The notes beneath the pieces were generated by a model that saw nothing but the letters and a program-made list of their open reading frames with translations, was not told the DNA's origin and did no database searches. The position numbers and the translations under genes are program-made. From an uncultured virus (IMG/VR IMGVR_UViG_3300042673_000573) (lineage: Duplodnaviria > Heunggongvirae > Uroviricota > Caudoviricetes): 55,584 nt of DNA. The DNA lies in IMG/VR virus record IMGVR_UViG_3300042673_000573. One strand, written 5' to 3'. Below, one piece after another: positions 16,334 to 36,508 of this stretch; positions within the stretch are counted from its first letter, which is position 1, and each line of letters begins with the position of its first letter.

Positions 16334-16483
16334 TTAAGAAAAACTCATACCTCTATCATGAGAAATAGGAAAACATCTTTCACAATAAGACTTTGATGCA
16401 CTTGTAACTGGACAAGATTTAGTAACAACCTTGTGACCAAAAACAAAACATAAAATCTTTTTAGATATTAAAGTTCTACCCAT
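16334..16483 (-). CDS. Small Cys/His protein (C.xFGH...CxRC)
   Basis: 49 aa MGRTLISKKILCFVFGHK...YCERC..., not in the ORF track; overlaps upstream stop. Confidence 0.5.
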   Translation of the reverse strand: MGRTLISKKILCFVFGHKVVTKSCPVTSASKSYCERCFPISHDRGMSFS

Positions 16484-17139
16484 AGTGAATCTACGCCAAG
16501 ACTTTTTGGACAAATATCATATGCAATAGTGATTCTGCTTTTTTCACTCCACCATAAATCTCTTGTATGAGGGTGACCAGTTTCTGAAACAATTGCTCTA
16601 TTGTTAATATTAACATTGTCAAAATCTTTAACTCTATCAATTTGATAAAAAGTTACAGATGGTTCTGCATTGACACAGTAGTAACCATGAAAAACTGGAG
16701 CGCCTTGTCCACCCATATGGTCATGAAGATTCATCTTTACAGAAGACTTATCTGGATTAGCAGCAAGCCATTGCTCTTTAGTTCCAGGAAGCATTTTCTT
16801 GTCAAGGTTGTACCAACCCTTAATCGCATAGTTCTGCTCATTAAAATCAATACCGTAGTAAGCAGATGCCTCAAAGACCAAGTCTCTCAGGGTGTCTTTT
16901 AGTTTATCTAATCCTGGGTGACTATATGTGTTTTTATCAAATATATTATAGTGATGAGCCAGTTGTGTCGAAGGCCCATGATCTTCATCTACTCCAACTA
17001 GTTCTTCTTTTGGAATAAAATCTCTTTGTCCTGCAACCATCTTTTTTTGATCATCAGCAAGGTAATCAAATAAAGAATCTAAATCATTATCAATAATCTT
17101 ATCAAAAAACTTATGTGGTGGTTTAGACATTGCTATCAT
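16468..17139 (-). CDS. Putative Fe(II)/2OG oxygenase (cupin fold)
   Basis: GWYN, HDH, FHGYYCV, GHPH, RITIAYD; ATGA overlap with upstream paralog. Confidence 0.65.
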   Translation of the reverse strand: MIAMSKPPHKFFDKIIDNDLDSLFDYLADDQKKMVAGQRDFIPKEELVGVDEDHGPSTQLAHHYNIFDKNTYSHPGLDKLKDTLRDLVFEASAYYGIDFNEQNYAIKGWYNLDKKMLPGTKEQWLAANPDKSSVKMNLHDHMGGQGAPVFHGYYCVNAEPSVTFYQIDRVKDFDNVNINNRAIVSETGHPHTRDLWWSEKSRITIAYDICPKSLGVDSLWVEL

Positions 17140-17798
17140 GATAATGGGATCCAATGCTGCTCTTGGCCCATACCGTGAGTAATTAGGTCTCTTAGTGGAA
17201 TAACATCATATGCAACAGTAATTCTTGGACCTTCCCAGTCCCAGTCAGCCATAGCATGTGGGTGACCCATTTCAGAAAGAATTGCCCTATTGTCAATGTT
17301 AACATTTTCAACATTCTTATCAAATACACGATAGTGTGTTGTAGATGGAGCAGCCTTTACACAATAGTATCCATGGAAGTTTGGGGCACCTTCTGGACCA
17401 TGATCGTGCCAGTCTAGTTTTCCTTTACCTTTGTTGGTAATGTTAAACCATCCTTGAAGCATATATTGGTTTGCATTAAAATCAACACCATAATAGTCAC
17501 ATGCTTCTTTTGTCATATCGCCAATTGCCTTGTATAGGCTATAAAGTTCTTTACTGTGAAATTGGAAAACATTATATTGTCTCCACTTCATTGTTGAAAC
17601 ACTGTTTGACTGCTTCCATATTTCATTTTCTCCAACTGGAGTTACGCCAATAATTTCTGCTTTTTGAATTTTAGTATATCGATCTTGAAGATCTGCTGAC
17701 AACTTGTTTAAATCATTACCAAGAAATCTCTCAAAAAACCTATGAGGTTGTGGAGACCTGCTTGTACTTTCCACCATCGGTGGGTAGTTTGAATTCAT
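17136..17798 (-). CDS. Putative Fe(II)/2OG oxygenase (cupin fold), paralog of 16468..17139
   Basis: GWFN, WHDH, FHGYYCV, GHPH, RITVAYD. Confidence 0.65.
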   Translation of the reverse strand: MNSNYPPMVESTSRSPQPHRFFERFLGNDLNKLSADLQDRYTKIQKAEIIGVTPVGENEIWKQSNSVSTMKWRQYNVFQFHSKELYSLYKAIGDMTKEACDYYGVDFNANQYMLQGWFNITNKGKGKLDWHDHGPEGAPNFHGYYCVKAAPSTTHYRVFDKNVENVNIDNRAILSEMGHPHAMADWDWEGPRITVAYDVIPLRDLITHGMGQEQHWIPLS

Positions 17799-17839: not shown

Positions 17840-19408
17840 CTACGCTTGTGGTGTTTGAGTCTGGTCGTACCAGTCTTTACCATCATGTGTAAGCGAGTGC
17901 TCGGTGAAGAATATGTCATAAGGCTCACAGTTAACTGTAATAACATTTACTGGGAACTCAAGAGTTTCAAGTTCAGTAACAGGTGCCCATGCTCCTAGAG
18001 AGTAATCCCAAACCATATCTGTTTGAACTATATTTTTAGCCCATTCAAATGTTGAAACTCCTTCTCTTTGTACAAGAATTAAGTGGCTTGGAGAGAATGC
18101 ATCTCCATTTAGTCTAATTGTTGTATCTGTAGCATGTGTATCTATCTTGTTAATTGTTGTTACAACTTCTTCTGCTGAAGACAGATCAAACTCACTAGAC
18201 CAATCGTAGATTGTTGCTGTCTGTGTATCTGAAAGTCCTGGAAGAGATATAGACTTTAGTTGATCGCCAACATTAAGGTCTTGTGCTTCTTTAAGAGTTC
18301 CGTCAGACATTCTGACCTTAGTCTTAGGTCCAAGAGAGTAGTATCCTGGGCCACGTGCTGGTGAGAATCCAAAGACACCGAATGGTGAGAATCCAAAGAC
18401 ACCGAATGGTGAGAATCCAAAGACACCGAATGGTGAGAATCCAAATACTGAGAATGGTGAGAATGGTGAGAATCCGAAGACACCGAATGGTGAGAATCCA
18501 AATACGTAGAAAGGAGTAAATGTAAACACTGAAAATGGTGCTACAGGTGCAAACGTAAATACGCTAAATGGAATAAATGAGAATACTCCGAATGGGGCAA
18601 ACGAAAACACTCCGAATGGAGTAAACGAGAACACTGGAGCAAATGAGAATACGCCAAACGGTGTAAACGAGAATACTCCGAATGGAGCAAATGAGAATAC
18701 GCCAAACGGTGTAAACGAGAATACTGGTGTAAACGAGAACACTCCAAATGGAGTAAACGAGAATACTCCGAATGGAGTAAACGAGAATGTCTGAACAGAA
18801 GCAGAAGCGGTAGAAAGTTCTGACCATCCCTTTGAGTTATAGGCACGAACACGATATGTCTGTGATGTTCCTGCTTCTTGGTTTACGTTTATTGATGTTC
18901 CAGAAGTATAAACTGTCTTTCCATCTGATGATGTAATTTCATAGTTTGTTATTGCTGCTCCGCCATTATCTGCAGGGGCTAACCAAGATACGCTATCATA
19001 GGCTGCTCCAGTTGGTGAAGATGCTGTTACTGCTGTTGGAGCATCTGGAACTGTAATAGACTCAAATGATCCACCAACAAGTTCAGAAGAGTCTCCATAA
19101 GATGCGTGAACTGCTTTTATTTTCCAAGTGTAGTTTGTACCACCACGAAGTCCAGTTGCTATAAATGGTGAAGATGTTACCCCAGCAAATGTTTTAGTTC
19201 CATAAGATGCACTGGTTGCTGTAATGGTGTAAGATGTTGGGGTTGCACCGTAGGTTGGGGGTGTAAATGTAATTGTAAACTGACCACTAAAATATGTAAA
19301 ACCAGAGTTAACTACAGAAACAATTGTTGGTTCTGTTGGGCTAATCGACTGATATCTTGGAACAGCCTTTGACTGCTTTCCTGCTTTACCACCTTTACGA
19401 ATTGGCAT
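17840..19408 (-). CDS. Two FN3 domains, 18 FxF[TSA]P repeats and C-terminal Hint domain
   Basis: FN3 signatures (VPDAPT..VSWLAPADNGGAAITNY..YRVRAYN); repeat block; Hint blocks SLGPKTKVRMSDG...VGD, FSPSH, LTHD. Confidence 0.8.
   Translation of the reverse strand: MPIRKGGKAGKQSKAVPRYQSISPTEPTIVSVVNSGFTYFSGQFTITFTPPTYGATPTSYTITATSASYGTKTFAGVTSSPFIATGLRGGTNYTWKIKAVHASYGDSSELVGGSFESITVPDAPTAVTASSPTGAAYDSVSWLAPADNGGAAITNYEITSSDGKTVYTSGTSINVNQEAGTSQTYRVRAYNSKGWSELSTASASVQTFSFTPFGVFSFTPFGVFSFTPVFSFTPFGVFSFAPFGVFSFTPFGVFSFAPVFSFTPFGVFSFAPFGVFSFIPFSVFTFAPVAPFSVFTFTPFYVFGFSPFGVFGFSPFSPFSVFGFSPFGVFGFSPFGVFGFSPFGVFGFSPARGPGYYSLGPKTKVRMSDGTLKEAQDLNVGDQLKSISLPGLSDTQTATIYDWSSEFDLSSAEEVVTTINKIDTHATDTTIRLNGDAFSPSHLILVQREGVSTFEWAKNIVQTDMVWDYSLGAWAPVTELETLEFPVNVITVNCEPYDIFFTEHSLTHDGKDWYDQTQTPQA
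18358..18787 (-). repeat. Coding tandem repeat, mostly 24-nt units (FGVFSFTP/FGVFGFSP)
   Basis: e.g. TGGTGAGAATCCAAAGACACCGAA repeated exactly three times from 18359. Confidence 0.95.
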
Positions 19409-19438
19409 TTATTTCCCCTTTTCCTATTTGTATTTTAA

Positions 19439-21388
19439 TTATGCTGTTAGATCGCCTGAAAGAATCCAGATATTAGTATCACGCTTTGTTAGCGTTCCAC
19501 CTGAGTACTGAGCACGAAGTTTTAGTCCTGGTGTACGATAAATTGTTACTCCTGCTCCCTCTGCAATTGTTGTCTGGCCTGTTCCCTTTTGGAAAACGTC
19601 AACAGATGTTCCTATTGGAAAGGCCACTGAAGAGTTTGGTGGAACAGTTATGCTTGTTGGGCTTGAACTGTTTGTTTCAACAACATTTGTTGCATCAGAT
19701 AGAGCAAGTGTATAACTTGTTGTCTGTGTATTAAATGATGACAGTGTTGCTGAATCAAGTTCAGTCTTACTTGCCTTAAGAGCAAGAGCATTTGTAATTG
19801 TAGTTGAGAAGTTTGCATCGCTACCCAGCGCTGTTGCTAACTCGTTTAATGTATTGAGAGTTCCAGGTGCTGAAGCGACTAATGCTGCAATTGCTGAGTC
19901 AGCATATGCTGTTGTTGCTATCTGAGTATTATTTGTTCCTGCTGCTGCTGTTGGGGCAGTTGGTACACCAGTAAGTGCTGGTGATGCAACTGATGCCTTC
20001 AAAGCATCTGCAGTATCTACATATGTTTTAGTAGCCAAGGCTGCTGTATCAGCAATTCCGTGGATATCTGTAGTGTCTGTAGCATGTGATGACAATGCTG
20101 AATCAGAGTATGTTTTAGTAGCAAGTGCTGATGTATCAGCAATTCCATGAACGTTTGTTGTATCATCGTTGTGCGCTGTTAGTGCTGTTCCTGCTGCAGT
20201 TGCTGCTGCAGCAATAGCGTCTGCTTCTGCTGTATCAGCGTATGACTTTGTAGCAAGAAGTGAAGTATCTGCAATTCCATGAACATCAGTTGTACTTGTG
20301 TTATGAGATCCTACTGCTGAATCAGCGTATGTCTTTGTAGCAAGGGCTGTTGTATCAGCAATACCATGAACATCAGTTGTATCTGATCCGTGAGCAAGAA
20401 CTGCTGCATCTGCCTTAGCCTGTGCTCCAGAAGATGTTTCAAGAACTGAGGTATCAGCAATTCCATGAACATTTGTTGTATCTGCTGAGTGTGTTCCAAG
20501 AGCAGTAGTTGCAGCGGTATCTGCTGCTGAAATAGCCTCTGACTTTGCAGTTGCTACATTTGCTGTAGTTGCAAGAAGTGCTGTGTCAGCAATTCCATGA
20601 ACATTTGTTGTATCTGTAGCATGTGTTCCAATTGCTGTATCTGTATAAGATGCTGCTGTAGTTGTTGCTGCTGTCTCTGCAGCATCTGCTGCTGAATCGG
20701 CATAAGCCTTTGTAGAAAGAAGTGCTGTGTCAGCAATTCCATGAACATTTGTTGTGTCTGCTGAGTGTAAACCAATAGATGTCTCTATTTCAGTTGCAAC
20801 ATAAGCGTTTCTAGAAGTTGTCATGCTTGTTTCTGATGCTGTAATTGCATCATTTACTGACGTATTTGTTGCAAGAACGGTTGTGTCTGCAATTCCATGA
20901 ATGTTAGTTGTATCTGCGCTATAAGTTGTAAGTGCTGCTGAGATTGCATCGTTTACTGATGAATTTGTTGCAAGTACAGTGGTATCTGCAATACCATGAA
21001 CGTTTGTTGTATCTCCATTGTGTGTAGTGATTGCATCAGAGACTACATCTCCGATCATTTCTACTGCAGAAGCGAGTTCTCCAAGAGTATCCAATGCTGC
21101 TGGAGCATTTGTGATAAGGGAGCCTAGTTGGGAGATAGGAATTTGTCCTGAGCCATTAAGTGTGGCAACACCACCAGGCTGTGCCTTTTCTGAGTCTAGT
21201 ATGAAACCTGAAGTGTCGAGGTCTCCAAAATCTTTAAAATATGATAGGGCAGACCATGAGTTGGTTCCGTCGCCCATCTTGAACATGCCTGAATCGGTTT
21301 CAAAACCAATTTCACCTGCTGCTAATACTGGGTTTGCTGCAGTCCATTGTGACGCAGTACCTCTACGCTGTTGCATTCTAGTTGCCAT
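19439..21388 (-). CDS. Fibre protein: Mtd/hyaluronidase-type N-terminus, 9 HGIADT repeats, C-terminal 'GDLTA' domain
   Basis: MATRMQQRRGTASQWTAANPVLAAGEIGFETD..KMGDG; SPALTGVPTAPT; LDTLxELA motifs. Confidence 0.8.
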   Translation of the reverse strand: MATRMQQRRGTASQWTAANPVLAAGEIGFETDSGMFKMGDGTNSWSALSYFKDFGDLDTSGFILDSEKAQPGGVATLNGSGQIPISQLGSLITNAPAALDTLGELASAVEMIGDVVSDAITTHNGDTTNVHGIADTTVLATNSSVNDAISAALTTYSADTTNIHGIADTTVLATNTSVNDAITASETSMTTSRNAYVATEIETSIGLHSADTTNVHGIADTALLSTKAYADSAADAAETAATTTAASYTDTAIGTHATDTTNVHGIADTALLATTANVATAKSEAISAADTAATTALGTHSADTTNVHGIADTSVLETSSGAQAKADAAVLAHGSDTTDVHGIADTTALATKTYADSAVGSHNTSTTDVHGIADTSLLATKSYADTAEADAIAAAATAAGTALTAHNDDTTNVHGIADTSALATKTYSDSALSSHATDTTDIHGIADTAALATKTYVDTADALKASVASPALTGVPTAPTAAAGTNNTQIATTAYADSAIAALVASAPGTLNTLNELATALGSDANFSTTITNALALKASKTELDSATLSSFNTQTTSYTLALSDATNVVETNSSSPTSITVPPNSSVAFPIGTSVDVFQKGTGQTTIAEGAGVTIYRTPGLKLRAQYSGGTLTKRDTNIWILSGDLTA

Positions 21389-21441
21389 TTATATCTCCTT
21401 ATGGGTGCTGCCCATTATTCTCTTATTATAACATCAATTTA

Positions 21442-21891
21442 TTAGTTGAAGTTATCTACTGCACTACCGCCATCGAATACTACTGTCCAAGTTGTATCAC
21501 TTGGTCCACCAGCATCCAAACCTACACCCAATGGGCTATTAAAAGTTCCAGCATTATAGAACTGCGAAACAATGAAACCTGTTCCATCAATTGCAGTATC
21601 GTGAATGTGCTCTGGAAGTGTGTTTGTATCATCAATAGTTGCTTGGGTATACCAAGAACCGTTGTAATAAAAATTAATTCTACTTGTTAAAGTGTCTAAC
21701 CACTGTGTTCCATTAGTTGGTGAAGAAGGAGGAGTTGGGCCTACTGCCATTGAATGACTATCAACATACTCCTTAGTTGCTGCATGTGACGCTGTTGTAG
21801 GTGTTCCTACTGTCACTGCATCTCCAAATGTACCGCCGTTTGCTACGACTAATCCATTTTTGACTCTAAAGTCTTTGTCAACTGTTGTCAT
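21442..21891 (-). CDS. Fibre-associated structural protein
   Basis: DKDFRVKNGL N-terminus, AATKEYVD motif. Confidence 0.6.
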   Translation of the reverse strand: MTTVDKDFRVKNGLVVANGGTFGDAVTVGTPTTASHAATKEYVDSHSMAVGPTPPSSPTNGTQWLDTLTSRINFYYNGSWYTQATIDDTNTLPEHIHDTAIDGTGFIVSQFYNAGTFNSPLGVGLDAGGPSDTTWTVVFDGGSAVDNFN

Positions 21892-21926
21892 TTACTGCTC
21901 CCTCTTCCAACTATTTTTATTTTTTA

Positions 21927-23738
21927 TTACGCTACTAATGTTCCGACAACAGTTACTACTGAAGTGTTGTTGGCGGTTGTTACTAGAAGTTGTACATTTG
22001 CTCCTGAGATACCTGCAGAAATTGCTGATGCTGAACCGTTAGTTCCAACAATTCCATACTCTGTGATTGCAACGTTATCGTTGGCATCAAGTGTTAAAAG
22101 TACCTTTGAGATTTCTGTGTGATCTCCATAGGCAACCTTTACAAGATATTCTGCTGAGCGATAATCAGCCTTTGCAAAGGCATGTGCTACCTGAACTCCT
22201 GCTGTTGCTGCTTCAAGAGTTGCTGCAACCTGCTTAGCAACTGAGTTTAACTCAACTGCTGTAAAGTTTGGAACAACTGCTTCAAGAGCATCTACTGCTC
22301 TTTGTGCTGTGAAGTACTTATTTGTTGAACCTTCTGTCAGATCATTAGTTGTAGAATCTGCTACACCATTTTCTGCTGAAATTGTAAGACCATTTTCGTC
22401 ACCAGTAATAGTGATGTTTGTCTTTGTAGCACCAACAATGAGTGCTGCTGCTGCAGTCTTAGCACGAGTATCTGTGAAGTAGAGACTTCCTGATTCTGCT
22501 ACATCAGAAGTAACAAGTGCGTCTGCGTGATCGATTGCTGCTTGCTGTGCAAGACCAATTTCTGTGCTTGTCTTGTATGCTGACCAAACTTCTGTTGAAG
22601 AAGATGATGCATCATTGATCAAGTCATCTGCATAGTCCTTAGCATCTTGCTCTGCTGTATCAGCATATGACTGGTAAGCAGTTGTGATTGCTGTCTCACG
22701 GTCATTTGTGTAAGAATTTGCTGATGTTACTGCATCTGATTCGGCTGTATCAACATACTGCTTTGTTGCTGCGTCTGTATTTGCTGTAGGTGTTCCAAGA
22801 CCAGTAATCTTGTTTGATCCCATTGCAATTTCGCCAGTCATTGATCCGCCAGCAAGTGGAAGTTTGTTTCCAATTGATACTGCAAGGCCTGCAGCATCTA
22901 CGTTATCGCCAAGTGCTTCAGCAAGTTCGTTAAGTGTATCTAATGCTGCTGGTGCTGAATCTACAAGATCAGCAACTGCTTGAGAGATTCTTGCTGCAAC
23001 TGTGTTTCCACCAGTTCCATCAATTGTTGCATCTCCAATAAGAAGATCTGTGTATGCTTCGTAAGCAGTTGTAATTAACCCTTCACGAGTATCTGTATAA
23101 GCCTTAGCATCTACTTCTGCTTGGTCTGCATAGCCTTGTGTTGCAAGAACATCTGCACCCCACTTGACAGAAGAACCTGCTGCTGGAGTAAGAACGATAT
23201 GAGAATCAGAGTTGATTGTCATTGCTCCTGCGCCAGTGAAGTTAAGTGTATCTCCAATAGTCTTATTTGTTAATGTTTGTGTGTTGGTTGTTCCAACTAC
23301 CGCACCAGTTGCACCGTGTGCTTCTGTTAGGTTAGAGTGTGCTGTAAGGGCTGCTGCTGCATCAGTTGCGGCTTGTGCTGCTGCACCAATCGTGTCCCAA
23401 AGACCAGTGTTAGCAGTTACTGCTCTCTGATCAGTAAAGTACTTGTTTGTACCTTCTGTAAGATCACCTGTAGTATGATTTGAAATATCTGATACTTGAC
23501 CAGTTACATCACCAGTTAAATCTGCTGTAATTGTTCCTGCAGCAAAGTTACCATTAGCATCACGCTTTACAACCTTGTTTGCTTCGTTAGCAGATGTTGC
23601 TGTACCACCGATAAGATCAATAATATAATTTTGATCTGCTGTTTTCTTTGTAAGAACGTCAAAATTGTTAACTGTCGCTGTTGTACCTTCAACAATGAGA
23701 CCACTCTTAATTTTAAAATCTTTATTTACTGTTGCCAT
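21927..23738 (-). CDS. Long fibre protein
   Basis: KDFKIKSGL N-terminus, LTEGTNKYFT repeats, LDTLNELA, DAATKQYVD; C-terminal YRSAEY..EYG domain. Confidence 0.75.
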   Translation of the reverse strand: MATVNKDFKIKSGLIVEGTTATVNNFDVLTKKTADQNYIIDLIGGTATSANEANKVVKRDANGNFAAGTITADLTGDVTGQVSDISNHTTGDLTEGTNKYFTDQRAVTANTGLWDTIGAAAQAATDAAAALTAHSNLTEAHGATGAVVGTTNTQTLTNKTIGDTLNFTGAGAMTINSDSHIVLTPAAGSSVKWGADVLATQGYADQAEVDAKAYTDTREGLITTAYEAYTDLLIGDATIDGTGGNTVAARISQAVADLVDSAPAALDTLNELAEALGDNVDAAGLAVSIGNKLPLAGGSMTGEIAMGSNKITGLGTPTANTDAATKQYVDTAESDAVTSANSYTNDRETAITTAYQSYADTAEQDAKDYADDLINDASSSSTEVWSAYKTSTEIGLAQQAAIDHADALVTSDVAESGSLYFTDTRAKTAAAALIVGATKTNITITGDENGLTISAENGVADSTTNDLTEGSTNKYFTAQRAVDALEAVVPNFTAVELNSVAKQVAATLEAATAGVQVAHAFAKADYRSAEYLVKVAYGDHTEISKVLLTLDANDNVAITEYGIVGTNGSASAISAGISGANVQLLVTTANNTSVVTVVGTLVA

Positions 23739-23756
23739 TTTTTATATCTCCTTTTA

Positions 23757-24203
23757 TTATGCCTTAAGTCCCATACGAGCATATCGTACAGTGACTGGCT
23801 TGATCGCAGGATCTGGAGTGACTGTTAAGGCCACGGTATTTCCAGTGCGAGAGACATTAATGGTGCCAATATTCCCATCATTGTCGATTGTTCCATACTC
23901 ACTGACAGAAACACCGTCTCCGTCAACAAGAATTGTCATTTCAGTTGCGTAGAACTTGTTGTCCCCTGCTGTGGTCTTTGATATTGAAACAATATACTTA
24001 ACCATACGCCAAACTGTAGCATCAAAGTTATCAATAACAGTTACGTTCTCAATTCCATTGACTGTGTTTTCATTGTTACCTGCTGATCCTAAATCTGTTG
24101 ATTGAGAAACAAGGGTATCGATTAAATCTTCATAGTTTTCTTGAGTAGGTCTATCACCTGTTTGAAATAGACTTTTAACTCCTGGGACTGATATCTTTGC
24201 CAT
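23757..24203 (-). CDS. Structural protein sharing the C-terminal fibre domain type
   Basis: FQTGDRPTQENY.DLID; WRMVKY..SEYGTI resembles C-terminus of 21927..23738. Confidence 0.6.
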   Translation of the reverse strand: MAKISVPGVKSLFQTGDRPTQENYEDLIDTLVSQSTDLGSAGNNENTVNGIENVTVIDNFDATVWRMVKYIVSISKTTAGDNKFYATEMTILVDGDGVSVSEYGTIDNDGNIGTINVSRTGNTVALTVTPDPAIKPVTVRYARMGLKA

Positions 24204-24224
24204 ACTGAGATTATATCATGGATT

Positions 24225-24449
24225 TTAAAGTATATAGTTATTCAGACCAATGACAGCGATGCCAATTGGCGCAGGAGAGGCTGCTGAGTAGCCTGGAATC
24301 TGAATGTTTGTTATCCGTATCCTAAATGGTAACACTTCGTTAATCTTAACTATTGGATAAGGTTTTGAGATCTTTATAGCCCCGTAAGTTACAGCATTAA
24401 TTGCTGAAACTTTTCTCTTAGTATTATTATTGATTATTGATGTGGCCAT
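24225..24449 (-). CDS. Hypothetical protein
   Basis: ORF coupled to upstream gene (TAATG). Confidence 0.6.
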   Translation of the reverse strand: MATSIINNNTKRKVSAINAVTYGAIKISKPYPIVKINEVLPFRIRITNIQIPGYSAASPAPIGIAVIGLNNYIL

Positions 24450-24856
24450 TAATCAGTTACATCTTCAATAACAATTACGCTACCCTGGCAAACTGTCCAA
24501 ACAGTTTCATTTCCTGGGGCAGACAACTGAATATCAAATATGTCTCCAGTCTGTAATGTTAAAGATTGTGTTGCTGATAAAAATACTGTAAATTCTCCTG
24601 GAAGGTCATCTGGATCTGCAGCGGGACTTAAAGTCATAACAACTGAAGCATCATCACTAATAATGCCTGGAATCGTATTTGGTCTTTTGATTTTCATGGC
24701 TATTGACCAATCTGGCACATTGAGAGGTGCCTCTAAATCATCAGTAACGTAAACCTTAAATGATGCAGTATCTCCACGGACAAATGTCCAAGTAACTTGT
24801 GGTGGCTTTGAGCCAACATCATACTGAGATTTTTGAGAATTCCTATTTGTTGCCAT
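24449..24856 (-). CDS. Baseplate upper (BppU-like) Ig-domain protein, putative
   Basis: VRGDT motif, FDIQL, WTVCQG; paralogous to 32289 and 33568 ORFs. Confidence 0.5.
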   Translation of the reverse strand: MATNRNSQKSQYDVGSKPPQVTWTFVRGDTASFKVYVTDDLEAPLNVPDWSIAMKIKRPNTIPGIISDDASVVMTLSPAADPDDLPGEFTVFLSATQSLTLQTGDIFDIQLSAPGNETVWTVCQGSVIVIEDVTD

Positions 24857-24883
24857 TTTTAAATTATACCACGAATCTTTGGT

Positions 24884-25834
24884 TTATACCCAGTCTTTTG
24901 GGAACTCCGCAAAGTCATCATATCCTATAAAACTAAAAACATCTGACTTTTTAGAGGAAATCATATCTCTTTGAATATAAGCAGTAAAAGTACTTCTAGG
25001 GGTTCCGATAAACTCCTTTGACTGACACATTACCAATAATCCAATTAGACCAAAGACGATCTCTGACTGGCTAGGTAAAGCCAAAAACTCATCTGAAAAA
25101 TTATCTACAATATAGTCATCTAAAAACGTAATATCTTTATTTTTAAATATTTCATTGTTTACATCATCTGTTAATACTACGGTTTTTAAATCATTATTTT
25201 TAAGCGCTTTGTCAAAATCTTTCTCTGAAAAACTGAATGTTCTTTCTGCATGATCTGTAAGCCTTACGTGCATGCCACGAAATTCTCCAAGACTGTTGGC
25301 AATTTTGTTTGCTAAATTTATATAATCTTCTTTAAAAGTTACTTTTATTTTATTTAAAAATTCATTATCTTGATTAGCAAAAAAGGTTTCACGGTTGGCC
25401 AGGTTTGGACCAGACATATTATAAGACTTGTTTTCTTCAAAGATTAATTCTTTTTTATTAAAATATTCAGCACCTACCTGAATTTCTTTAGAAACATTTA
25501 CATAATCTGAAAACAGATTGTCAGATATTTTAATTTCATCTTTAGAAAATTGATCTATTTTACCAAAAGCAATATACTCCCAAACCAAAGACTTATTAAA
25601 ATCTATTAACTCAAAAAAGTTTACCATCTCTCTTTTAACAATTGAATCTCTTTTTCCAAAAACAACATTGTCACTAATTGGAAAACTATCAAGCCAGTTC
25701 TGTTGACTATCAAGTAAATTATAGATAACAAGTTTTTTATTTGTTATATAAGAAAGACCCAGACCTACTTCTAAACTAAACAGCCTGTTTGTAAGTCCTG
25801 CATGGTGTAATCTGTAAAATAAAAAGTTATCCAT
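24884..25834 (-). CDS. O-fucosyltransferase-like glycosyltransferase (GT-B)
   Basis: GLTNR, GMHVRLTD, VLTDD, EFIGTPRSTFTAYI match POFUT-family GDP-sugar motifs. Confidence 0.75.
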   Translation of the reverse strand: MDNFLFYRLHHAGLTNRLFSLEVGLGLSYITNKKLVIYNLLDSQQNWLDSFPISDNVVFGKRDSIVKREMVNFFELIDFNKSLVWEYIAFGKIDQFSKDEIKISDNLFSDYVNVSKEIQVGAEYFNKKELIFEENKSYNMSGPNLANRETFFANQDNEFLNKIKVTFKEDYINLANKIANSLGEFRGMHVRLTDHAERTFSFSEKDFDKALKNNDLKTVVLTDDVNNEIFKNKDITFLDDYIVDNFSDEFLALPSQSEIVFGLIGLLVMCQSKEFIGTPRSTFTAYIQRDMISSKKSDVFSFIGYDDFAEFPKDWV

Positions 25835-26852
25835 TTTGTTTTTTTATCCATTCATATGTTTGTTTGATTCCATCTTTAAGAGACATTGAGTAATCCCAGT
25901 CTAATTTTTCTCTAACTAAATCATTATTAGAGTTTCTGCCTCTAACTCCAAGTGGGCCAGGAATGTGCATTTTGCTAAGAGTTTTGTCTTCAATGCTACA
26001 AGCAATATCTACCAACTGATTAATAGTAACCATTTCTTCAGACCCAATATTGACTGGTCCAGTAAAGTCTGACTCCATAAGCCTTCTTGTTGCTTCTATG
26101 CATTCATCTATATATAGGAATGAACGAGTCTGTTCTCCATCCCCCCAAATTTCTATAAATCCATCTGACTGAATAACTTTTCTACATATTGCTGCTGGTG
26201 CTTTTTCTTTTCCACCATCCCAAGTTCCTTCTGGTCCATAAATATTATGATATCTGGCAATGGCTACAGGGATCTTGTTGTTTCTATTAAAGGCTAAGAA
26301 CATTCTCTCACTAAACAGTTTCTCCCAGCCGTACTCGCTGTCAGGATCTGCAGGGTATGCATCAGACTCCTTAAGTCCAGGATTATTAACATCCAACTGC
26401 TTATAGTCAGGATACATACAGGCAGAACTTGAATAAAATATTTTGGTTTTATTAATATCATACTTTTCATTAAGTCTAGACTGCGCTCTTAATAGGTTAA
26501 GGTTTATTAGAGCAGAGTTTTCCATAATCTGAGAATCGTTTAAACCAGTAAAGATATATCCTGCTCCACCCATGTCTGCTGCAAATTGGTATATCTCATC
26601 AAATGAATCTATAGAACGATATGGAACTTCGTGGTAAAAGTTTCCTTGATATCCTTTAAACTGAATAACTTTTTCAACATTCTCATATACCGAAAGATCT
26701 CTTTCAACAAACTCGTCTGCTTGTGTTTCTGAAAAGTCTGGATGTTTTAAATCAACACCACGAACCCAGTATCCTTCTGATTTTAATCTTTTAACCATGT
26801 GGCTTCCAATAAAACCACCTGCACCAAAAACTAATGCCGTTTTCTGTTTCAT
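25827..26852 (-). CDS. GDP-mannose 3,5-epimerase-like NAD-dependent epimerase
   Basis: GAGGFIG, AADMGGAGYI, SSACMYP, YGWEK, EKAPAA.CRK, HIPGP.GVRGRNS. Confidence 0.85.
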   Translation of the reverse strand: MKQKTALVFGAGGFIGSHMVKRLKSEGYWVRGVDLKHPDFSETQADEFVERDLSVYENVEKVIQFKGYQGNFYHEVPYRSIDSFDEIYQFAADMGGAGYIFTGLNDSQIMENSALINLNLLRAQSRLNEKYDINKTKIFYSSSACMYPDYKQLDVNNPGLKESDAYPADPDSEYGWEKLFSERMFLAFNRNNKIPVAIARYHNIYGPEGTWDGGKEKAPAAICRKVIQSDGFIEIWGDGEQTRSFLYIDECIEATRRLMESDFTGPVNIGSEEMVTINQLVDIACSIEDKTLSKMHIPGPLGVRGRNSNNDLVREKLDWDYSMSLKDGIKQTYEWIKKQNG

Positions 26853-27394
26853 TAGGCTAAACCGTTTTTCAATGCTCCCCAAGTTCCATTTCCTTTTGCT
26901 TGAACAATGAGTATTCCAGGATTTCCAGAATGAGCAACAATTCCTACTGCAACACCAGAGTTTTCTGGTTTTGCTCCTGACGAATCGTTTGCTCCTGAAA
27001 TAAGCCCTCCAGTTTGACCAACATAAAGAATTGAGCCACTTGCAAATGTTGAAGTATTTAAACCTTCAAGAACTCCTCCTACTACAACTACACCATTAGC
27101 ATTATTTGCTATATTAGTTTTTGCTAAACCTAATAATGTTTGTGTAGAAGAACCAGTGAGTTTTGTTATTAGAGTTCTTTCTGATACTGAACTATATCCA
27201 GAAGCATAAACAGGGTCTCCTGCTGATATTGATGATCCAGTTTCATTTCTTACACTAATTTGAAAATATGAAAGGCCTAAAGGTGGAAGAATCTCTTCTA
27301 GTTTAGTTACTAAATCTTTAATATCTCCGTGTACATTCACGTTATCGCTTGCTAAGGGATACGGTAAGCCTAGCCCGTTTAATTTTGTTGCCAT
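26852..27394 (-). CDS. Virion structural protein
   Basis: LPYP..SD N-terminus, GLNTSTF.SG.ILYV beta-rich domain. Confidence 0.55.
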   Translation of the reverse strand: MATKLNGLGLPYPLASDNVNVHGDIKDLVTKLEEILPPLGLSYFQISVRNETGSSISAGDPVYASGYSSVSERTLITKLTGSSTQTLLGLAKTNIANNANGVVVVGGVLEGLNTSTFASGSILYVGQTGGLISGANDSSGAKPENSGVAVGIVAHSGNPGILIVQAKGNGTWGALKNGLA

Positions 27395-27499
27395 AGTACT
27401 TTTATTATACCATTGTTCAGAGTTGACTTTTGAAGAAATATCATGCTATACTAGGTAGTAACACCTACCAAGGTGTTATTGTTTTCTAAGGAGGAAACT

Positions 27500-28063
27500 A
27501 TGATTAAATTTATCGAAAGAAACAAAGAGATCATTAGCACACTCAGTATATTGACTTTAGTAGTGTCTTTGTCAAACACTGCTAATGCTGAAACACGAAC
27601 AAGTGACAAAAACAATTTGAGTATAGAACAGGCTCAGGAGCAAGGAAACGCCTCGAAAGAGGTTTTTTTGGTTTCTAAAGCAAAAAGGCTAGAGAGTTTT
27701 GAGAATAAGACATCTCTGACCGATATTGAACTAAAGGAACTGCTTTCTCTAGTAGGATTTAAGGGTAAAGACCTTGTGGTTGCTTGGGCGGTTGCTAAAA
27801 AAGAATCTAATGGACGACCATTGGCTTTTAATGGCAATCACAAGACTGGTGACTCGTCTTATGGAATGTTCCAAATTAATATGATTGACAACCTTGGTCC
27901 TGACCGTAGAGAAAAGTTCGATCTTGACTCTAATGCTGAACTGTTCAATCCCGTTAAAAATGCTGAAATTGCATACTACATGACAAACGGTGGAGACGAT
28001 TGGTCTTCTTGGAAGGGCATTACGCCTAAGACCAGAATGTGGATGAGCAAGTTTCCTAAGTAG
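27500..28063 (+). CDS. Lytic transglycosylase/lysozyme-like protein with N-terminal hydrophobic segment
   Basis: AVAKKES...SYGMFQIN...NA.IAY...WSSW; AAGGAGG RBS before ATG 27500; TTGACT/TATACT promoter upstream. Confidence 0.8.
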   Translation: MIKFIERNKEIISTLSILTLVVSLSNTANAETRTSDKNNLSIEQAQEQGNASKEVFLVSKAKRLESFENKTSLTDIELKELLSLVGFKGKDLVVAWAVAKKESNGRPLAFNGNHKTGDSSYGMFQINMIDNLGPDRREKFDLDSNAELFNPVKNAEIAYYMTNGGDDWSSWKGITPKTRMWMSKFPK

Positions 28064-28289
28064 GCCATTTGTTTGCTGGGCAAGTTGCATGCAAAAGTCT
28101 TGACTTAGCAACCATAAAACAGCCACACAAACTACATTGCTTAGTTGCTAAAAGGTTTGGGCATGATTTACATATGTCATATCTTTGGTCTGCAACATTC
28201 TTATGAGCATATTCAGTATTTGGATTAATAAAATCCCAAGGCCTTGTGTCTCCAAGGTTTTCTATCCATTGATCAAACTTATTTTTCAT
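28056..28289 (-). CDS. Small Cys-rich protein (DUF6171-like)
   Basis: R..ICKSC...QCSLCGCFM..K......CP..KW. Confidence 0.7.
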   Translation of the reverse strand: MKNKFDQWIENLGDTRPWDFINPNTEYAHKNVADQRYDICKSCPNLLATKQCSLCGCFMVAKSRLLHATCPANKWPT

Positions 28290-28297
28290 TTTTTCTC

Positions 28298-30601
28298 CTA
28301 ATCTGTATTAGAAATATCATACCACTGCTTGCCATCATGTGTCAAGGCGTGTTCTGTAAAGTATATGTCGTATGGCTCACAGTTTATAGATATTACTTCA
28401 ACTGGGAACTCAAGCATTTCTAGTTCGGTTATTGATTCCCAGTTTCCAAGGTAGTCTCTAATTAAATCTGTTGAAATAACATCTCTTGACCATACAAACA
28501 ATATTTCTTCATTACGCTTAACCATTATTACGTGGTTAGGGCTAAATGCATCTCCGTTAATTCTGTATGTCTTGTCTGTTGTGTGTCTAGTCACACTATT
28601 AACAGTTGTTATAACATTTTCAAATATGACATCGTCAATTGTTGACCAAGTCAATAGTGAAGATGTTGTTGCATCTGTTTGAGAGATTTCACCTGAATTT
28701 ACAGATAATAGTTCATCTCCTACAACAATATCTTGTGCTTCCTTTAGGCTGCCATCAGCCATTCTAATTTTAGTCTTAGGTCCAAGAGAGTAGTATCCTG
28801 GGCCACGTGCTGGTGAGAATCCGAAGACAGAGAATGTTGGAGTAAAGGTAAAGGCTGCTGTTGGAGTAAAGGTAAAGGCTGCTGTTGGAGTAAATGAGAA
28901 TGCTGGTGCGGTTGGAGTAAATGAGAAGGCATTTGGATCTGTACAAGAAGCACCTGATGCTCCTCCATCTACACACTTAACGCCAACATCTGCTTGGTAG
29001 CATGGGCTTGCTGGGTTTGGAACATCCCCCTGTGCACATAAATGGAATCCAGAAAGAAGCGCTGGATATGTTGGGGCAACTGGAGTAAATGAGAATGTTG
29101 GAGTAAATGTGAATACAGGAGTAAATGAGAACGTATTTATAAGTTCTCCACAACATGAATATCCTACGCCTATTTGATATTCGTTTGGTCCTCCAAGATA
29201 GGTCCTTCCTAAATCTGCACATGTAGCGGTAGTATTTTTAGTTTGAACATTTGGAGACTGACAATTTGGCTTTGCAAGTGGTGTAAATGAAAAGACACTA
29301 AATGGCGTAAATGTAAATACTGAAAATGGCGTAAATGTAAATGCTACGGTACAAGCCTCGCTTTCTTCCCAAGGACTTGACCTTCCTGCTTGATAAAATG
29401 GTTCAAGGTAATCATTTACAGAACAATCTGAATAAATAATATTTACAGTTCTATTTTGAGCATATCTTTTTCTTATTGATCCAACACAGGTTCCCCAGTC
29501 GTCCCAATTATAAACATATGAGGTTCCAGCAGTACAAGTTACTACACAATCTCTTTGCTGTCTCCAAGGACTTGAATTTCCTACTACATAAAATTGTTGA
29601 GTTCCAGTGCTGATAGAACAGTCTGCATTAACTGTAGAATAATCTCTATCTGTTGCCCATCTAGACTGTGTTCCATTAGAGCATGTATCCCATTCTCCCC
29701 AATTATAAGTGTATGTTGTTGCTACCGTACATGTTGCAGCAACGTAATTCCACATAGTTAAATTTACATTTGTTCCTGAAGCAACTGCAGTTCCTGATGC
29801 TGGAGATTGACTTTCTACTTTGCCACTATTAGCAGCAGTGCTTGTAGTTGTTCCTGTTGTAACACTTCCAGAAACTAGTCCTGCTGTTTGAAGTGCAGTT
29901 TGTGCTGCAGCAGAAGTCATTCCTACAACATTTGGAACTGTTTTATCTAATACTACGGCTGGTGGGGCATTTGTTTTAACTGTACCCTGTCCTAATTGAG
30001 AAGATCCAGTTTGATTTGCTCCAGAATATACAAAAACAGTTATGTCGTGCATATTATCTGGAGTAAGACCAGTTGCGGTAACACTTGTTGCTGTTGTTCC
30101 ATATAAACTAAAACCTGGCTCGTTATCTGTAAATCTTGGAACAACCATTAAATGGAATGATACTTGTCCTGAAGATGTCCAACTAATTGTTGCAGTTGTT
30201 GTGCCAGTTGCAGTGCCCGATACGTTTGAAATACTTAGTGCTGGTGTGTATGGAGTAAAAGTAAACACACCAAATGGTACAAATGAAAACACTGAAAATG
30301 TAACTGGCGTGAATGAAAATGGTGTAACTGGTGTAAATGTAAATACACTAAACGGAGTAAAAGAAAATAGTCTATATGTAAAATCTATTGGGCTTTCATA
30401 ATCAACCAATGTTCCTGCTGGCGCTGCTTGGGTTATAACAGTGTTTGTCTTTGTATTATCTTCTTGAGTTACTGTAGATGCAGTTCCTACTATTAGACCA
30501 TTGCTTTGGATTAATTCTTCGGCTTCTGTTTTTGATATTTCAAGGATATTTGGTACTGAAACCATTCCTTTAGAAGCAGACCATTTGCTAATCCAACCCA
30601 T
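28298..30601 (-). CDS. PASTA, FN3, TSP1-like and Cys-rich modules with 16 FxFxP repeats and C-terminal Hint domain
   Basis: VPNVVGMT..AQTALQTAGL..VESQSPASG (PASTA x2); WGEWDTC and WDDWGTC; SLGPKTKIRMADG...FSPNH...LTHD. Confidence 0.8.
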   Translation of the reverse strand: MGWISKWSASKGMVSVPNILEISKTEAEELIQSNGLIVGTASTVTQEDNTKTNTVITQAAPAGTLVDYESPIDFTYRLFSFTPFSVFTFTPVTPFSFTPVTFSVFSFVPFGVFTFTPYTPALSISNVSGTATGTTTATISWTSSGQVSFHLMVVPRFTDNEPGFSLYGTTATSVTATGLTPDNMHDITVFVYSGANQTGSSQLGQGTVKTNAPPAVVLDKTVPNVVGMTSAAAQTALQTAGLVSGSVTTGTTTSTAANSGKVESQSPASGTAVASGTNVNLTMWNYVAATCTVATTYTYNWGEWDTCSNGTQSRWATDRDYSTVNADCSISTGTQQFYVVGNSSPWRQQRDCVVTCTAGTSYVYNWDDWGTCVGSIRKRYAQNRTVNIIYSDCSVNDYLEPFYQAGRSSPWEESEACTVAFTFTPFSVFTFTPFSVFSFTPLAKPNCQSPNVQTKNTTATCADLGRTYLGGPNEYQIGVGYSCCGELINTFSFTPVFTFTPTFSFTPVAPTYPALLSGFHLCAQGDVPNPASPCYQADVGVKCVDGGASGASCTDPNAFSFTPTAPAFSFTPTAAFTFTPTAAFTFTPTFSVFGFSPARGPGYYSLGPKTKIRMADGSLKEAQDIVVGDELLSVNSGEISQTDATTSSLLTWSTIDDVIFENVITTVNSVTRHTTDKTYRINGDAFSPNHVIMVKRNEEILFVWSRDVISTDLIRDYLGNWESITELEMLEFPVEVISINCEPYDIYFTEHALTHDGKQWYDISNTD

Positions 30602-30609
30602 GATTAGCC

Positions 30610-31239
30610 CTACGCTGTCAAATCGCCAATAAGGATCCAGGTATCGGTATCAGTTTTTACTAGTGACCCACCAGAATATCTTGCAGCAATTTTCTTGTTT
30701 AAATTTTTACTTAAAACAGTTACACCGCTAGACTCACTAATAAATACACCACCAGTACCGTACCTAATCAAGTCAACACGCTGGCCAATAACAAATGGCA
30801 CTGTTGCGTTTGTTGGAACTGTGATAATAACATTGTCATTTGAGGTAATTTTTAAAGTTTTGCCTACATCAGACAAACTAAGTGTTTTGCTTGCAGTAAT
30901 AGATGTTAAATAAACAGAATCAGAGTACTCTCTCCAAGAACCATTATAATAATATTGAATTTGGTTTATAATGTCTCCATTATCTGTTTGCTGAATAAAA
31001 CAAACAAGACCATTAATTGGGTTTACTATAACATCATTACGAGAAGACGGATTTAAAAAATTATTTACTCCACCTTTTGCACGTAGAACTGATTCATAGG
31101 TTGCTGAGTTTAAAAACTTATGAGTACCGCTCCAAATATAGTTTGCAGTTGTATTTGTGCTTCCAGTAACTGGATACCAAGCATCATCTTCTGAATCATA
31201 TAAGTAGGCTAATTTCCCCTCATCGCTAATTGTTGACAT
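30610..31239 (-). CDS. Fibre-type protein with C-terminal 'GDLTA' domain
   Basis: C-terminus homologous to that of 19439..21388 (ITVP.N..V.F.IG, YSGG.L.K.DT..WIL.GDLTA). Confidence 0.7.
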   Translation of the reverse strand: MSTISDEGKLAYLYDSEDDAWYPVTGSTNTTANYIWSGTHKFLNSATYESVLRAKGGVNNFLNPSSRNDVIVNPINGLVCFIQQTDNGDIINQIQYYYNGSWREYSDSVYLTSITASKTLSLSDVGKTLKITSNDNVIITVPTNATVPFVIGQRVDLIRYGTGGVFISESSGVTVLSKNLNKKIAARYSGGSLVKTDTDTWILIGDLTA

Positions 31240-31685
31240 TATACTCCTATCGGCTTCCATGCATTTGTTAATGAATCAAAAATATACATAGTTAATGGAA
31301 CAGAGTCTCTATCTACCCAAAGCGCTCCGTCTGTTACTGTATTTGTTGCTGGTGGGGTGTTAGTAAAAATTGCACTTGGAAAAACAACAGAGTTAGATGC
31401 GGAAGAATTTTTGTTCATCCATACATAGCCTTCTAGTGGAGAAGTTGGAGCAGTAGCAGTTACTGAAGAACCAATTCCTCTATTATTTATTGTTGTTATA
31501 TCATTTTTCATTTGTTGTAAATGATAGGCAATAGAATTTGATTGAATTTCTGCTGTTGAGGCTGGTGGGGTTGTTGTTCCATAAAGAAAAAGTCTTAATG
31601 CTGCGACAATGTCTGCAGCGTCACCATATGCTGGGATCTGGGTATTAAAGGGTCCGTTTAAGTTCGGATTTATATCTTGAGCCAT
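31239..31685 (-). CDS. Virion structural protein
   Basis: TAPTSPLEGYVW / TPP..GALWVD fibre-type motifs. Confidence 0.55.
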   Translation of the reverse strand: MAQDINPNLNGPFNTQIPAYGDAADIVAALRLFLYGTTTPPASTAEIQSNSIAYHLQQMKNDITTINNRGIGSSVTATAPTSPLEGYVWMNKNSSASNSVVFPSAIFTNTPPATNTVTDGALWVDRDSVPLTMYIFDSLTNAWKPIGV

Positions 31686-36392: not shown

Positions 36393-36461
36393 AGTTCATT
36401 TTACCATAAATCTGAAAATATTGTTCAGATGTATGATACGTGTTTATAAAAATAAAATGAC

Positions 36462-36494
36462 AAAAAAATAGTGCGCCCATAACAGACGCACTAA
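36462..36494 (-). terminator. Intrinsic terminator
   Basis: TAGTGCG...CGCACTA stem followed by a T run on the minus strand. Confidence 0.6.
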
Positions 36495-36508
36495 GATTTA
36501 TTTATTTG

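What the first reader, a model, noticed from the sequence alone, without database searches (positions are those of the whole stretch)
17840..30601. Two paralogous FxF[TSA]P-repeat/Hint autoprocessing proteins with flanking modifying enzymes: candidate virion-decoration system
Seen: 17840..19408 has two FN3 domains, then about 143 aa with 18 near-tandem FxFxP units (FGVFSFTP, FGVFGFSP) and no charged residue, then a Hint domain. 28298..30601 has 16 of the same units in four clusters between PASTA, FN3, TSP1-like and Cys-rich modules, and the same FGFSPARGPGYY-Hint end. The first gene is followed directly by two paralogous Fe-oxygenases, the second by a DUF6171-like Cys protein. An O-fucosyltransferase-like gene and a GDP-sugar epimerase lie between them. 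Known: Hint domains self-cleave or ligate. Inference: the Hint releases or couples a Phe/Pro/Ser/Thr-rich polymer that is hydroxylated or glycosylated and assembles (beta-solenoid or FG-nucleoporin-like mesh) on the virion. A RiPP-like source of Pro-terminated octapeptides is a less likely alternative.
Basis: partly seen in the sequence, partly recalled or inferred. Interest (0 to 1): 0.85.

Follow-up and report, generated by a model that had tools for sequence, protein, structure and literature searches.

The report
Self-cutting caps on phage fibre tips
An uncultured lake phage has two fibre-associated proteins that end in a greasy phenylalanine-rich tail followed by an intein-like domain that probably cuts itself off; related phages fill that end position with other caps or none, and only the neighbouring oxygenase genes, not the sugar genes, travel with the tail.

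Summary
In detail: 18 and 16 FxFxP units, and both proteins end in a true Hint fold (Ser1, block-B His, terminal His-Asp; no splicing residues). The reading as one decoration system holds only in part. Each gene sits directly behind a tail-fibre gene of a probable freshwater actinophage. In relatives the position after the tail holds a Ser- or Cys-type Hint, a Cys-rich tip, an apparently split S74 chaperone, or a stop codon at about the place of the predicted cut; complete genomes lack Hint altogether. Hint is therefore best read as a removable maturation cap that leaves a Phe-rich C-terminus, not as an essential ligase. The two 2OG-fold oxygenases (HxH…H) track FxF-type tails (14 of 17 against 0 of 22 slots; not significant on independent pairs), also Pro-free ones. 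DUF6171 follows Cys-rich tips, not Hint or repeats. The fucosyltransferase-like/GDP-mannose 3,5-epimerase pair is a separate cassette (1 of 23). No chemistry is shown. This scan found the family before on other genomes; new here are the swappable cap, the split S74, the DUF6171 reassignment and a 53-nt conversion tract at the junction.

The parts
17840..19408 (-). Protein A, 522 aa: basic N-terminal peptide, FN3, FN3, Phe-rich tail, Hint
18788..19345 (-). Two FN3 domains of A (residues about 22-207)
   Evidence: Pfam fn3 E 1.9e-8, two stretches; pLDDT about 90; coordinates
18359..18787 (-). 18 FxFxP units, 143 aa, 36% Phe, uncharged
   Evidence: purifying selection; low pLDDT as monomer
17882..18337 (-). 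Hint domain of A, Ser358 to Asp509; block B S-P-S-H; ends His-Asp-Gly plus 12 residues
18318..18370 (-). 53-nt tract across the predicted cut site, identical to 28770-28822
   Evidence: separate contig at about double depth in two runs
17136..17798 (-). Oxygenase 1, 220 aa, 2OG/Fe(II) DSBH fold, H131-x-H133...H181, R192-x-T194
16468..17154 (-). Oxygenase 2, 228 aa, paralogue (36%)
19439..21388 (-). Fibre gene, 649 aa (Mtd_N at the start, shared C-terminal domain), directly upstream of A
28298..30601 (-). Protein B, 767 aa: PASTA, repeats, FN3-like, PASTA, two WxxWxxC modules, Cys-rich modules with repeats, Hint; 17 Cys
28334..28789 (-). Hint domain of B (Ser605 to Asp756), 86 of 153 residues identical to that of A
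28770..28822 (-). Second copy of the 53-nt junction tract
28056..28289 (-). DUF6171 protein, 77 aa; in relatives tied to Cys-rich tips, not to Hint
30610..31260 (-). 216-aa gene with the same fibre C-terminal domain, directly upstream of B
24884..25834 (-). O-fucosyltransferase/NodZ-like protein; separate cassette with the epimerase
25827..26882 (-). GDP-mannose 3,5-epimerase-like protein

Best explanation
A and B are accessory fibre-associated (adhesin-like) virion proteins of a roughly 110-kb freshwater phage, probably of actinobacteria. Each is made as a precursor whose last domain, a Ser1-type Hint, performs an N-to-O acyl shift at the Tyr|Ser bond and is released by hydrolysis, leaving a mature protein that ends in the Phe-rich tail. 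The Hint acts as a removable maturation cap (keeping the greasy tail soluble, protected or in register until assembly), the same role that the unrelated S74 chaperone plays on other fibres; it is one of several exchangeable ends and can be absent. The tail is the conserved functional end: a hydrophobic sticker or oligomerising segment. Shown: fold, catalytic residues, gene order, exchangeable ends. Inferred: virion location, cleavage, cap function, role of the tail. The oxygenases travel with FxF tails and may modify them (about 1 in 3); DUF6171 serves Cys-rich tips; the sugar genes are a separate cassette.
For: Hint fold, with Ser358 on hedgehog residue 258 and on intein residue 1, and Asp509 on the intein's last residue. 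Of 182 Hint domains dereplicated at 80%, 181 start with Ser (92) or Cys (89); in the Ser group block-B His is 92 of 92 and B7 Ser/Thr 90 of 92, while the last residue is Asp in 81 of 92 and the penultimate His only 55 of 92: the N-terminal step is conserved, the C-terminal one is not. These are the step-1 residues named in PMC4031507 (passages). Orthologues without Hint stop where the cut is predicted: last FxFxP to Hint residue 1, median 4 residues (48 of 51 within 12); last FxFxP to stop codon, median 7 (24 of 25 within 12). Two records rated 100% complete have only a 240-241-aa Hint-less form; a close relative (A 86% identical) has B without Hint. The same slot holds Cys-rich tips (15) or an S-x-x-R-F-K end followed by a separate gene matching Pfam S74 positions 18-52; S74-type domains are removed by autoproteolysis after helping fibres fold (PMC10579305, passages). 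104 of 110 distinct genes that follow the fibre C-terminal domain carry Hint or an aromatic tail (counted by eye; loci were chosen through Hint or the oxygenase, so partly by construction). WhiB in 4 of 4 near-complete relatives.
Against: No cleavage, virion location or host is shown; no cultured phage among 50,697 records carries the tail-Hint protein. Ser esters are less reactive than thioesters and block F4 is Thr/Ser, not the usual Asp, so cleavage may be slow or need a partner nucleophile. If the cap were needed for folding, bare forms should not be common, yet 28 of 110 A-type genes scored are bare. The N-terminal piece of the split S74 is recognised by eye only; Pfam and BLAST do not score it. 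The window's own record (51% complete) has no WhiB match.
Confidence: 0.6

Rival explanations
1. Hedgehog-like ligase: the Tyr-Ser ester is attacked by a specific nucleophile (a lipid, a sugar hydroxyl, or an amine of another virion or host protein), so Hint couples the tail covalently to something.
For: N-terminal activation residues are invariant while C-terminal ones are lost, as expected for an acyl donor; fold equally close to hedgehog (Z 16.0) and BIL; E495, P496 and D498 are conserved in the Ser group (88, 92 and 86 of 92) and could activate a nucleophile.
Against: Only about 6 residues follow the Hint (median), so there is no sterol-recognition-like region; the residue before the cut varies widely (G, Y, K, R, D, A); complete genomes do without Hint, and unrelated caps occupy the slot.
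Confidence: 0.15
2. Hint is a harmless mobile passenger or an uncleaved binding domain; it spreads between fibre genes by recombination in the repeats and gives no maturation benefit.
For: Patchy presence on a tree of the neighbouring 149-aa gene (bare forms need 11 changes, Ser-Hint plus oxygenase forms 8); 53-nt identical tract across the junction of otherwise 56% identical paralogues, and 65-nt and 437-nt tracts in two other phages; Hint also ends many non-aromatic phage proteins.
Against: Strict conservation of Ser/Cys1 and block-B His argues against an inert domain; no homing endonuclease; a self-removing passenger would still give the same mature protein as the best explanation.
Confidence: 0.13
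3. One reading: Hint releases a polymer that is hydroxylated by the two oxygenases and glycosylated by the transferase/epimerase pair, with DUF6171 as partner.
For: All genes lie within 14 kb; oxygenases follow FxF tails in 14 of 17 loci not chosen through the oxygenase, against 0 of 22 others; virion glycosylation is known in mycobacteriophages (as cited in PMC12619734, passage).
Against: Transferase upstream in 1 of 23 FxFxP loci; it pairs with the epimerase (13 of 18 distinct copies) in phages with other tails. DUF6171 follows 0 of 62 A-type Hint genes and 0 of 28 bare ones, but 10 of 17 Cys-tipped ones. Release would free the Hint, not the tail, which stays on FN3.
Confidence: 0.08
4. RiPP-like precursor of Pro-terminated octapeptides.
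For: Near-tandem F/P-rich units of mostly 8 residues; oxygenases next door.
Against: Units vary from 4 to 11 residues and in some relatives have no Pro; no leader and no protease in the slot; always fused to FN3/PASTA behind a fibre gene.
Confidence: 0.03

Closest known systems
Bacterial intein-like (BIL) domains, type A (C. thermocellum BIL, PDB 2lwy; Tetrahymena BUBL BIL2, 6tmm/6y75)
   Same: Hint fold (Z 16.3 and 17.9); no +1 nucleophile; placed in hypervariable, non-conserved proteins (PMC7765530, passage).
   Different: Type A ends His-Asn and cleaves at its C-terminus; here the end is His-Asp-Gly and the N-terminal residues are the conserved ones; phage fibre proteins rather than bacterial surface proteins; only a short tail follows. 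The Cys-type relatives do end His-Asn (84 of 89 Asn).
Hedgehog C-terminal autoprocessing domain (Hog-Hint, PDB 1at0)
   Same: C-terminal Hint that activates the bond to the upstream functional part (Z 16.0; residue 1 aligned).
   Different: Ser, not Cys, at position 1; no sterol-recognition region; no known nucleophile.
Intramolecular chaperone / Peptidase_S74 caps of phage fibres (K1F tailspike, T5 fibre)
   Same: C-terminal domain of a receptor-binding protein removed by autoproteolysis (PMC10579305, passages); S74-like pieces occupy the same slot in relatives.
   Different: Unrelated fold and chemistry; chaperone activity or trimer formation is not shown for these Hint domains.
Uncharacterised 2OG-Fe(II) oxygenases of the 2rg4/3bvc group; prolyl 4-hydroxylases next
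   Same: DSBH fold (2rg4 Z 16.1; PHD and P4H Z 12-13), conserved Arg-x-Thr.
   Different: HxH...H in place of HxD...H; no Pfam or NCBIfam hit; phage-restricted (2 loci in 185,579 genomes, one read and found to be this phage cassette); substrate unknown.
Virion glycosylation in mycobacteriophages (Freeman et al. 2023; seen only as cited in PMC12619734)
   Same: Actinophage with a glycosyltransferase among structural genes.
   Different: GT-B fucosyltransferase-like enzyme plus GDP-mannose 3,5-epimerase; no link to the FxFxP tail found.

Membership tests
Hint superfamily | Hint fold | tested here: met
   VIA Z 17.9, rmsd 2.3, 140 aligned; Foldseek E 1e-7, TM 0.73 to 6y75; profile hits to inteins
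Hint superfamily | Cys/Ser at position 1 and block B Thr/Ser-x-x-His | tested here: met
   Ser358, S439-P-S-H442 in A; His 92 of 92 in the Ser group
Hint superfamily | Autocatalytic acyl shift or cleavage | not testable with these tools
   needs expression and MS
Class 1 intein | C-terminal Asn and Cys/Ser/Thr at +1, with a C-extein to ligate | tested here: not met
   His-Asp-Gly and 13 trailing residues in A; rule from PMC4031507
Type A BIL | Conserved C-terminal His-Asn | tested here: not met
   His-Asp in both window proteins; Asp in 81 of 92 Ser-type relatives; definition from PMC7765530
Type A BIL | Location in hypervariable part of non-conserved proteins | tested here: met
   varied upstream sequences, though in phage proteins
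Hog-Hint | Sterol-recognition region after Hint | tested here: not met
   median 6 residues after the last Hint residue
Peptidase_S74 intramolecular chaperone | S74 domain at the C-terminus of A or B | tested here: not met
   the domain is Hint; S74 occurs only in relatives
2OG-Fe(II) oxygenase superfamily | DSBH fold with Arg-x-Ser/Thr for 2-oxoglutarate | tested here: met
   pLDDT 91.6; all 50 listed VIA rows belong to this fold; R192 and T194 invariant in 31 sequences
2OG-Fe(II) oxygenase superfamily | HxD/E...H iron triad | tested here: inconclusive
   H131-D-H133...H181: third position is His; that the 2rg4 group also has HxH is recalled, not checked
Prolyl 4-hydroxylase acting on the repeat | Pro-containing substrate always present; activity | tested here: inconclusive
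   Pro-free tail directly before the oxygenase in L156, and four genes before it in L043; activity untested
Thrombospondin type 1 repeat (in B) | Profile or structure match | tested here: inconclusive
   WxxWxxC motif twice; no Pfam or PDB hit
GDP-mannose 3,5-epimerase | Sequence closest to GME | tested here: met
   E 1e-91 to 2c59 against 5e-22 for the next family; activity untested
O-fucosyltransferase / NodZ-like GT | Family match | tested here: inconclusive
   Atlas features 0.97, families on under half of the first cluster's members; no Pfam or NCBIfam hit
RiPP precursor | Leader or follower plus dedicated protease | tested here: not met
   no protease gene in the slot; tail fused to FN3/PASTA
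FG-nucleoporin-like mesh or beta-solenoid | Self-assembly or regular fold of the repeat | tested here: inconclusive
   monomer pLDDT under 50 and no secondary structure; oligomer not modelled

The most novel reading that the evidence does not exclude
Freshwater actinophages run a modular maturation kit for fibre tips: an exchangeable self-removing cap (Ser-Hint, Cys-Hint or a naturally split S74 chaperone supplied in trans) guards an aromatic low-complexity tail, and a phage-only three-His 2OG oxygenase hydroxylates that tail on its aromatic residues rather than on Pro, giving the virion a chemically modified sticky end. This would be the first protein substrate for this orphan oxygenase family and the first maturation role for Hint in virions.
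Probability: 0.22. Interest if true: 0.85.

Novelty: new variant of a known kind. Interest (0 to 1): 0.55.

Why it matters
Hint domains outside inteins are known from hedgehog and bacterial BIL proteins; eight full-text searches listed no paper describing them as caps on phage fibre proteins, yet they are common here (575 proteins with E at most 0.001 among 8000 candidates scored). Natural Hint-less and S74-ended versions make the cap idea directly testable. The oxygenase family is large (976 clusters), unannotated and tied to a defined candidate substrate, which makes the open question of what phage 2OG oxygenases do testable with two recombinant proteins. DUF6171 gains a first functional hint (Cys-rich tips). 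A Ser/Asp Hint that only cleaves upstream could also serve as a self-removing tag.

Tried and rejected
Complex prediction of the fibre C-terminal domain (3 copies) with residues 1-121 of A gave no verdict (score 0.04, mark 0.32): no evidence either way. Single-sequence search of the Hint part against solved structures found nothing; the oxygenase profile found nothing by sequence. Pfam, PHROGs and NCBIfam give no name to the oxygenases or the transferase. The independent-pairs test of tail against oxygenase had only 5 pairs (2.8 same way, 0 opposite, p 0.25), so co-evolution is not shown. Oxygenase search in 27 chosen records without FxFxP slot: 3 matched; G012 holds two copies in enzyme islands away from its adhesin, G036 one directly behind a bare FxFxP adhesin, G029 a degenerate one; most of these records are incomplete, so blanks are weak. 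Link of the transferase to WxxWxxC modules: none of the 18 distinct transferase loci showed the motif, but flanks were short and the window-like loci were cut before B. TSP1 identity of B 290-418 not confirmed. Cultured phages: no tail-Hint relative; a borderline oxygenase hit in Synechococcus phage ACG-2014b (E 0.01) among unannotated genes upstream of fibre genes. RNA-library contigs of relatives cover parts of the region but do not show transcription. A fused FN3-tail-S74 protein was not found among 12 hits of 146-466 residues. The scan of bacterial genomes with the adhesin alignment could not be run, so whether the adhesin occurs in cell genomes is open. PMC5259590 (passages) had nothing relevant. 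No supplements were read; gene tables in supplements of freshwater-phage papers may list these proteins.


Full report
Setting. The window is part of a 63.5-kb virus record with portal, head protease, capsid, fibre and B12-dependent RNR genes. Complete relatives are 100-125 kb. WhiB is present in 4 of 4 near-complete relatives and absent from the window's half-complete record; PMC10202952 (first of two parts of the text read) calls whiB a key indicator of actinophages. Of 24 runs listed, 12 hold half or more of the sampled words, nearly all lake metagenomes. The host is therefore inferred, not shown.

The observation. Counts, coordinates and domains are as described, with two reservations: the TSP1 label is a motif only, and Pfam does not call Hint on the window's proteins, though 17 of 100 aligned relatives hit Intein_splicing. 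The Hint call is secure from structure: an AlphaFold model from 100 sequences has confident FN3 and C-terminal domains and an unfolded repeat; the C-terminal domain matches BIL2, BIL, hedgehog and inteins at Z 15-18, with Ser358 on residue 1 and Asp509 on the last residue. The repeat is under protein-level selection and is covered by contigs of an independent run.

What the Hint can do. I pooled 352 distinct proteins; 309 had a near-complete Hint and at least 30 residues upstream, giving 182 at 80% identity. Position 1 is Ser in 92, Cys in 89, Gly in 1. The Ser group, to which both window proteins belong, keeps block-B His in all 92 but ends in Asp (81) rather than Asn (8); the Cys group ends His-Asn (82 and 84 of 89). 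A median of 5-6 residues follow. By the mechanism in PMC4031507 (passages) this is machinery for the first acyl shift without splicing. Hint is not tied to this repeat: 53 of 89 Cys-type and 25 of 92 Ser-type domains follow non-aromatic linkers.

The end of the protein is exchangeable. A search anchored on the oxygenase returned 80 loci (best of 472). In 79 an aromatic-tail gene lies within four genes upstream; L090 is cut off. Of 65 distinct upstream genes scored, 37 have Hint and 28 were scored as without, one of these being the miscounted L090. The Hint-less genes stop right after the tail: median 7 residues after the last FxFxP, against 4 residues to Hint residue 1 in capped forms. Two records rated 100% complete have only such a bare form. 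In a close relative, B ends in a Cys-rich tip without Hint. A fourth end appears in PPFF-tail relatives: the adhesin ends in YSSKRFKHSI-like residues and the next gene matches Pfam S74 positions 18-52, the part after the cleavage motif; this arrangement recurs in 11 of 13 loci found with that gene, the other two being cut off upstream, and 11 of 12 proteins found with the tail end carry the motif. The N-terminal piece is matched by eye only. S74-type domains are self-removing folding caps of fibres (PMC10579305, passages). Two unrelated self-cutting domains, a Cys tip or nothing in one slot is what a removable cap predicts and what an essential ligase does not.

Exchange between paralogues. 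A and B share 53 identical bases across the predicted cut while their Hints are 56% identical; the tract forms its own contig at about double depth in two runs, so it is real. Of 10 other paralogue pairs, 7 share the junction residues closely and 3 do not. This points to gene conversion through the repeat.

Upstream partner. Both genes directly follow a gene with the same fibre C-terminal domain, and 104 of 110 distinct genes behind that domain carry Hint or an aromatic tail (by eye; biased by how loci were chosen). In loci anchored on an unrelated neighbour the slot is often empty, the fibre gene being followed directly by RNR, so the adhesin is accessory. The reading of a fibre-tip plus adhesin module was prompted by earlier finding e1-5970426 and then checked here.

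Oxygenases. The model (pLDDT 91.6) is a 2OG-oxygenase fold, closest to uncharacterised 2rg4 (Z 16.1) and then prolyl hydroxylases, with invariant His131, His181, Arg192 and nearly invariant His133. To test linkage without circularity I left out oxygenase-anchored loci; of 142 loci with the whole slot visible, 67 remained after dereplication and 39 of these were not oxygenase-anchored. A catalytic copy is present in 14 of 17 slots with an FxF-type or His/Tyr aromatic tail and in 0 of 22 others (17 empty, 3 GAF-type, 2 PPFF-type); PPFF tails go with canonical P4H-like genes and DUF6065 instead. Against: three FxFxP loci lack it, one complete genome has two copies far from its adhesin, and independent pairs are too few for significance. 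A Pro-free Tyr/Phe/Asn tail sits directly before the oxygenase in L156, so if the tail is the substrate the common residue is aromatic. I put tail modification at about 1 in 3.

DUF6171 and sugar genes. Of 80 DUF6171-anchored loci (best of 564), 6 were not called by my gene finder (among them two identical to the window, which do have Hint), 2 were duplicates and 16 were cut off; of the 56 scored, 51 have a Cys-rich-ended protein upstream, 1 a Hint protein and none three or more FxF[STA]P units. From the other side it follows 0 of 62 A-type Hint genes, 0 of 28 bare, 10 of 17 Cys-tipped and 3 of 17 other Hint genes. B has 17 Cys, which accounts for its neighbour. The epimerase is GME-like and pairs with the fucosyltransferase-like gene in 13 of 18 distinct copies, but lies upstream of only 1 of 23 FxFxP slots: a separate cassette.

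Mechanism. Most likely (0.6): precursor, N-to-O shift at Tyr|Ser, hydrolysis, mature FN3 or PASTA adhesin ending in a Phe-rich tail on or beside a fibre. Fold, residues and gene patterns are shown; cleavage, location and the tail's target are inferred. Since S74 caps act on trimers, a three-stranded tail with Phe inward is a reasonable guess, not tested. Rivals: ligase 0.15, passenger or inert domain 0.13, integrated decoration system 0.08, RiPP 0.03.

Prior knowledge. It works like a BIL or hedgehog autoprocessing domain and like an S74 cap; it is a member of the Hint superfamily but not an intein, type A BIL or Hog-Hint by their defining ends. No cultured phage has it. Eight paper searches (listings only unless named) showed no description; PMC7765530, PMC4031507, PMC10579305, PMC12619734 and PMC5259590 were seen as passages; Freeman et al. 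2023 only as a citation; no supplements were read. This scan reported the family on at least six other genomes, as unchecked AI notes. Verdict: real, well conserved, a new variant of known autoprocessing caps; the grand system is not supported, the cap exchange and the oxygenase link are worth testing. Interest 0.55.

Noticed in passing
L245:10646-11753; L341-L352: Apparently split Peptidase_S74: PPFF-tail adhesins end in an S-x-x-R-F-K motif and a separate 93-95-aa gene encodes the rest of the domain; L245 has two adhesins with the motif and one such gene seen, suggesting action in trans.
   Followed up: partly
L259, L262, L273, L295, L339 and other DUF6171 loci: A small unnamed gene (63-150 aa) usually lies between a Cys-rich tip and DUF6171; possible chaperone pair for Cys-rich fibre tips.
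   Followed up: partly
L167, L165: B-slot proteins of two relatives carry Thr-x-Asn repeats (TVNTVD, TINTIN) instead of FxFxP; in L167 a Hint-like gene stands alone behind the adhesin.
   Followed up: no
L053:11989-12549, L068:7288-7878 and similar: Degenerate copies of the oxygenase without the His motifs, often next to tails that are not Phe-rich.
   Followed up: partly
L043, L057, L180, L156: Tails of His/Tyr/Gly (FGHYGG) or Tyr/Asn/Phe (YNFYNF) units in the same slot.
   Followed up: partly
L097, L107, L121; L048, L082-L109: AspH-like beta-hydroxylase and sulfotransferase genes inserted between Cys-type Hint adhesins and the oxygenases; the sulfotransferase was seen only behind Cys-type Hints.
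   Followed up: no
window 54704-55447 (+): A second NodZ-like glycosyltransferase candidate (Pfam E 7e-5, below cut-off) far from the structural genes.
   Followed up: no
window 13685-16245 (-): Class II RNR followed by a canonical 2OG-FeII_Oxy_3 gene sits inside the structural region and is lost in many relatives.
   Followed up: no
window 27473-28063 (+): SLT_3 lysozyme-like (transglycosylase) gene on the opposite strand inside the fibre cluster.
   Followed up: no
window 36000-40400: About 4 kb with few ORFs of 80 aa or more, where strand bias switches; possible regulatory or origin region.
   Followed up: no
L355 (titled Flavobacterium MAG) and L354: L355 holds this phage cassette on a contig filed in a bacterial MAG, probably a mis-binned phage; L354 was not read.
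   Followed up: partly
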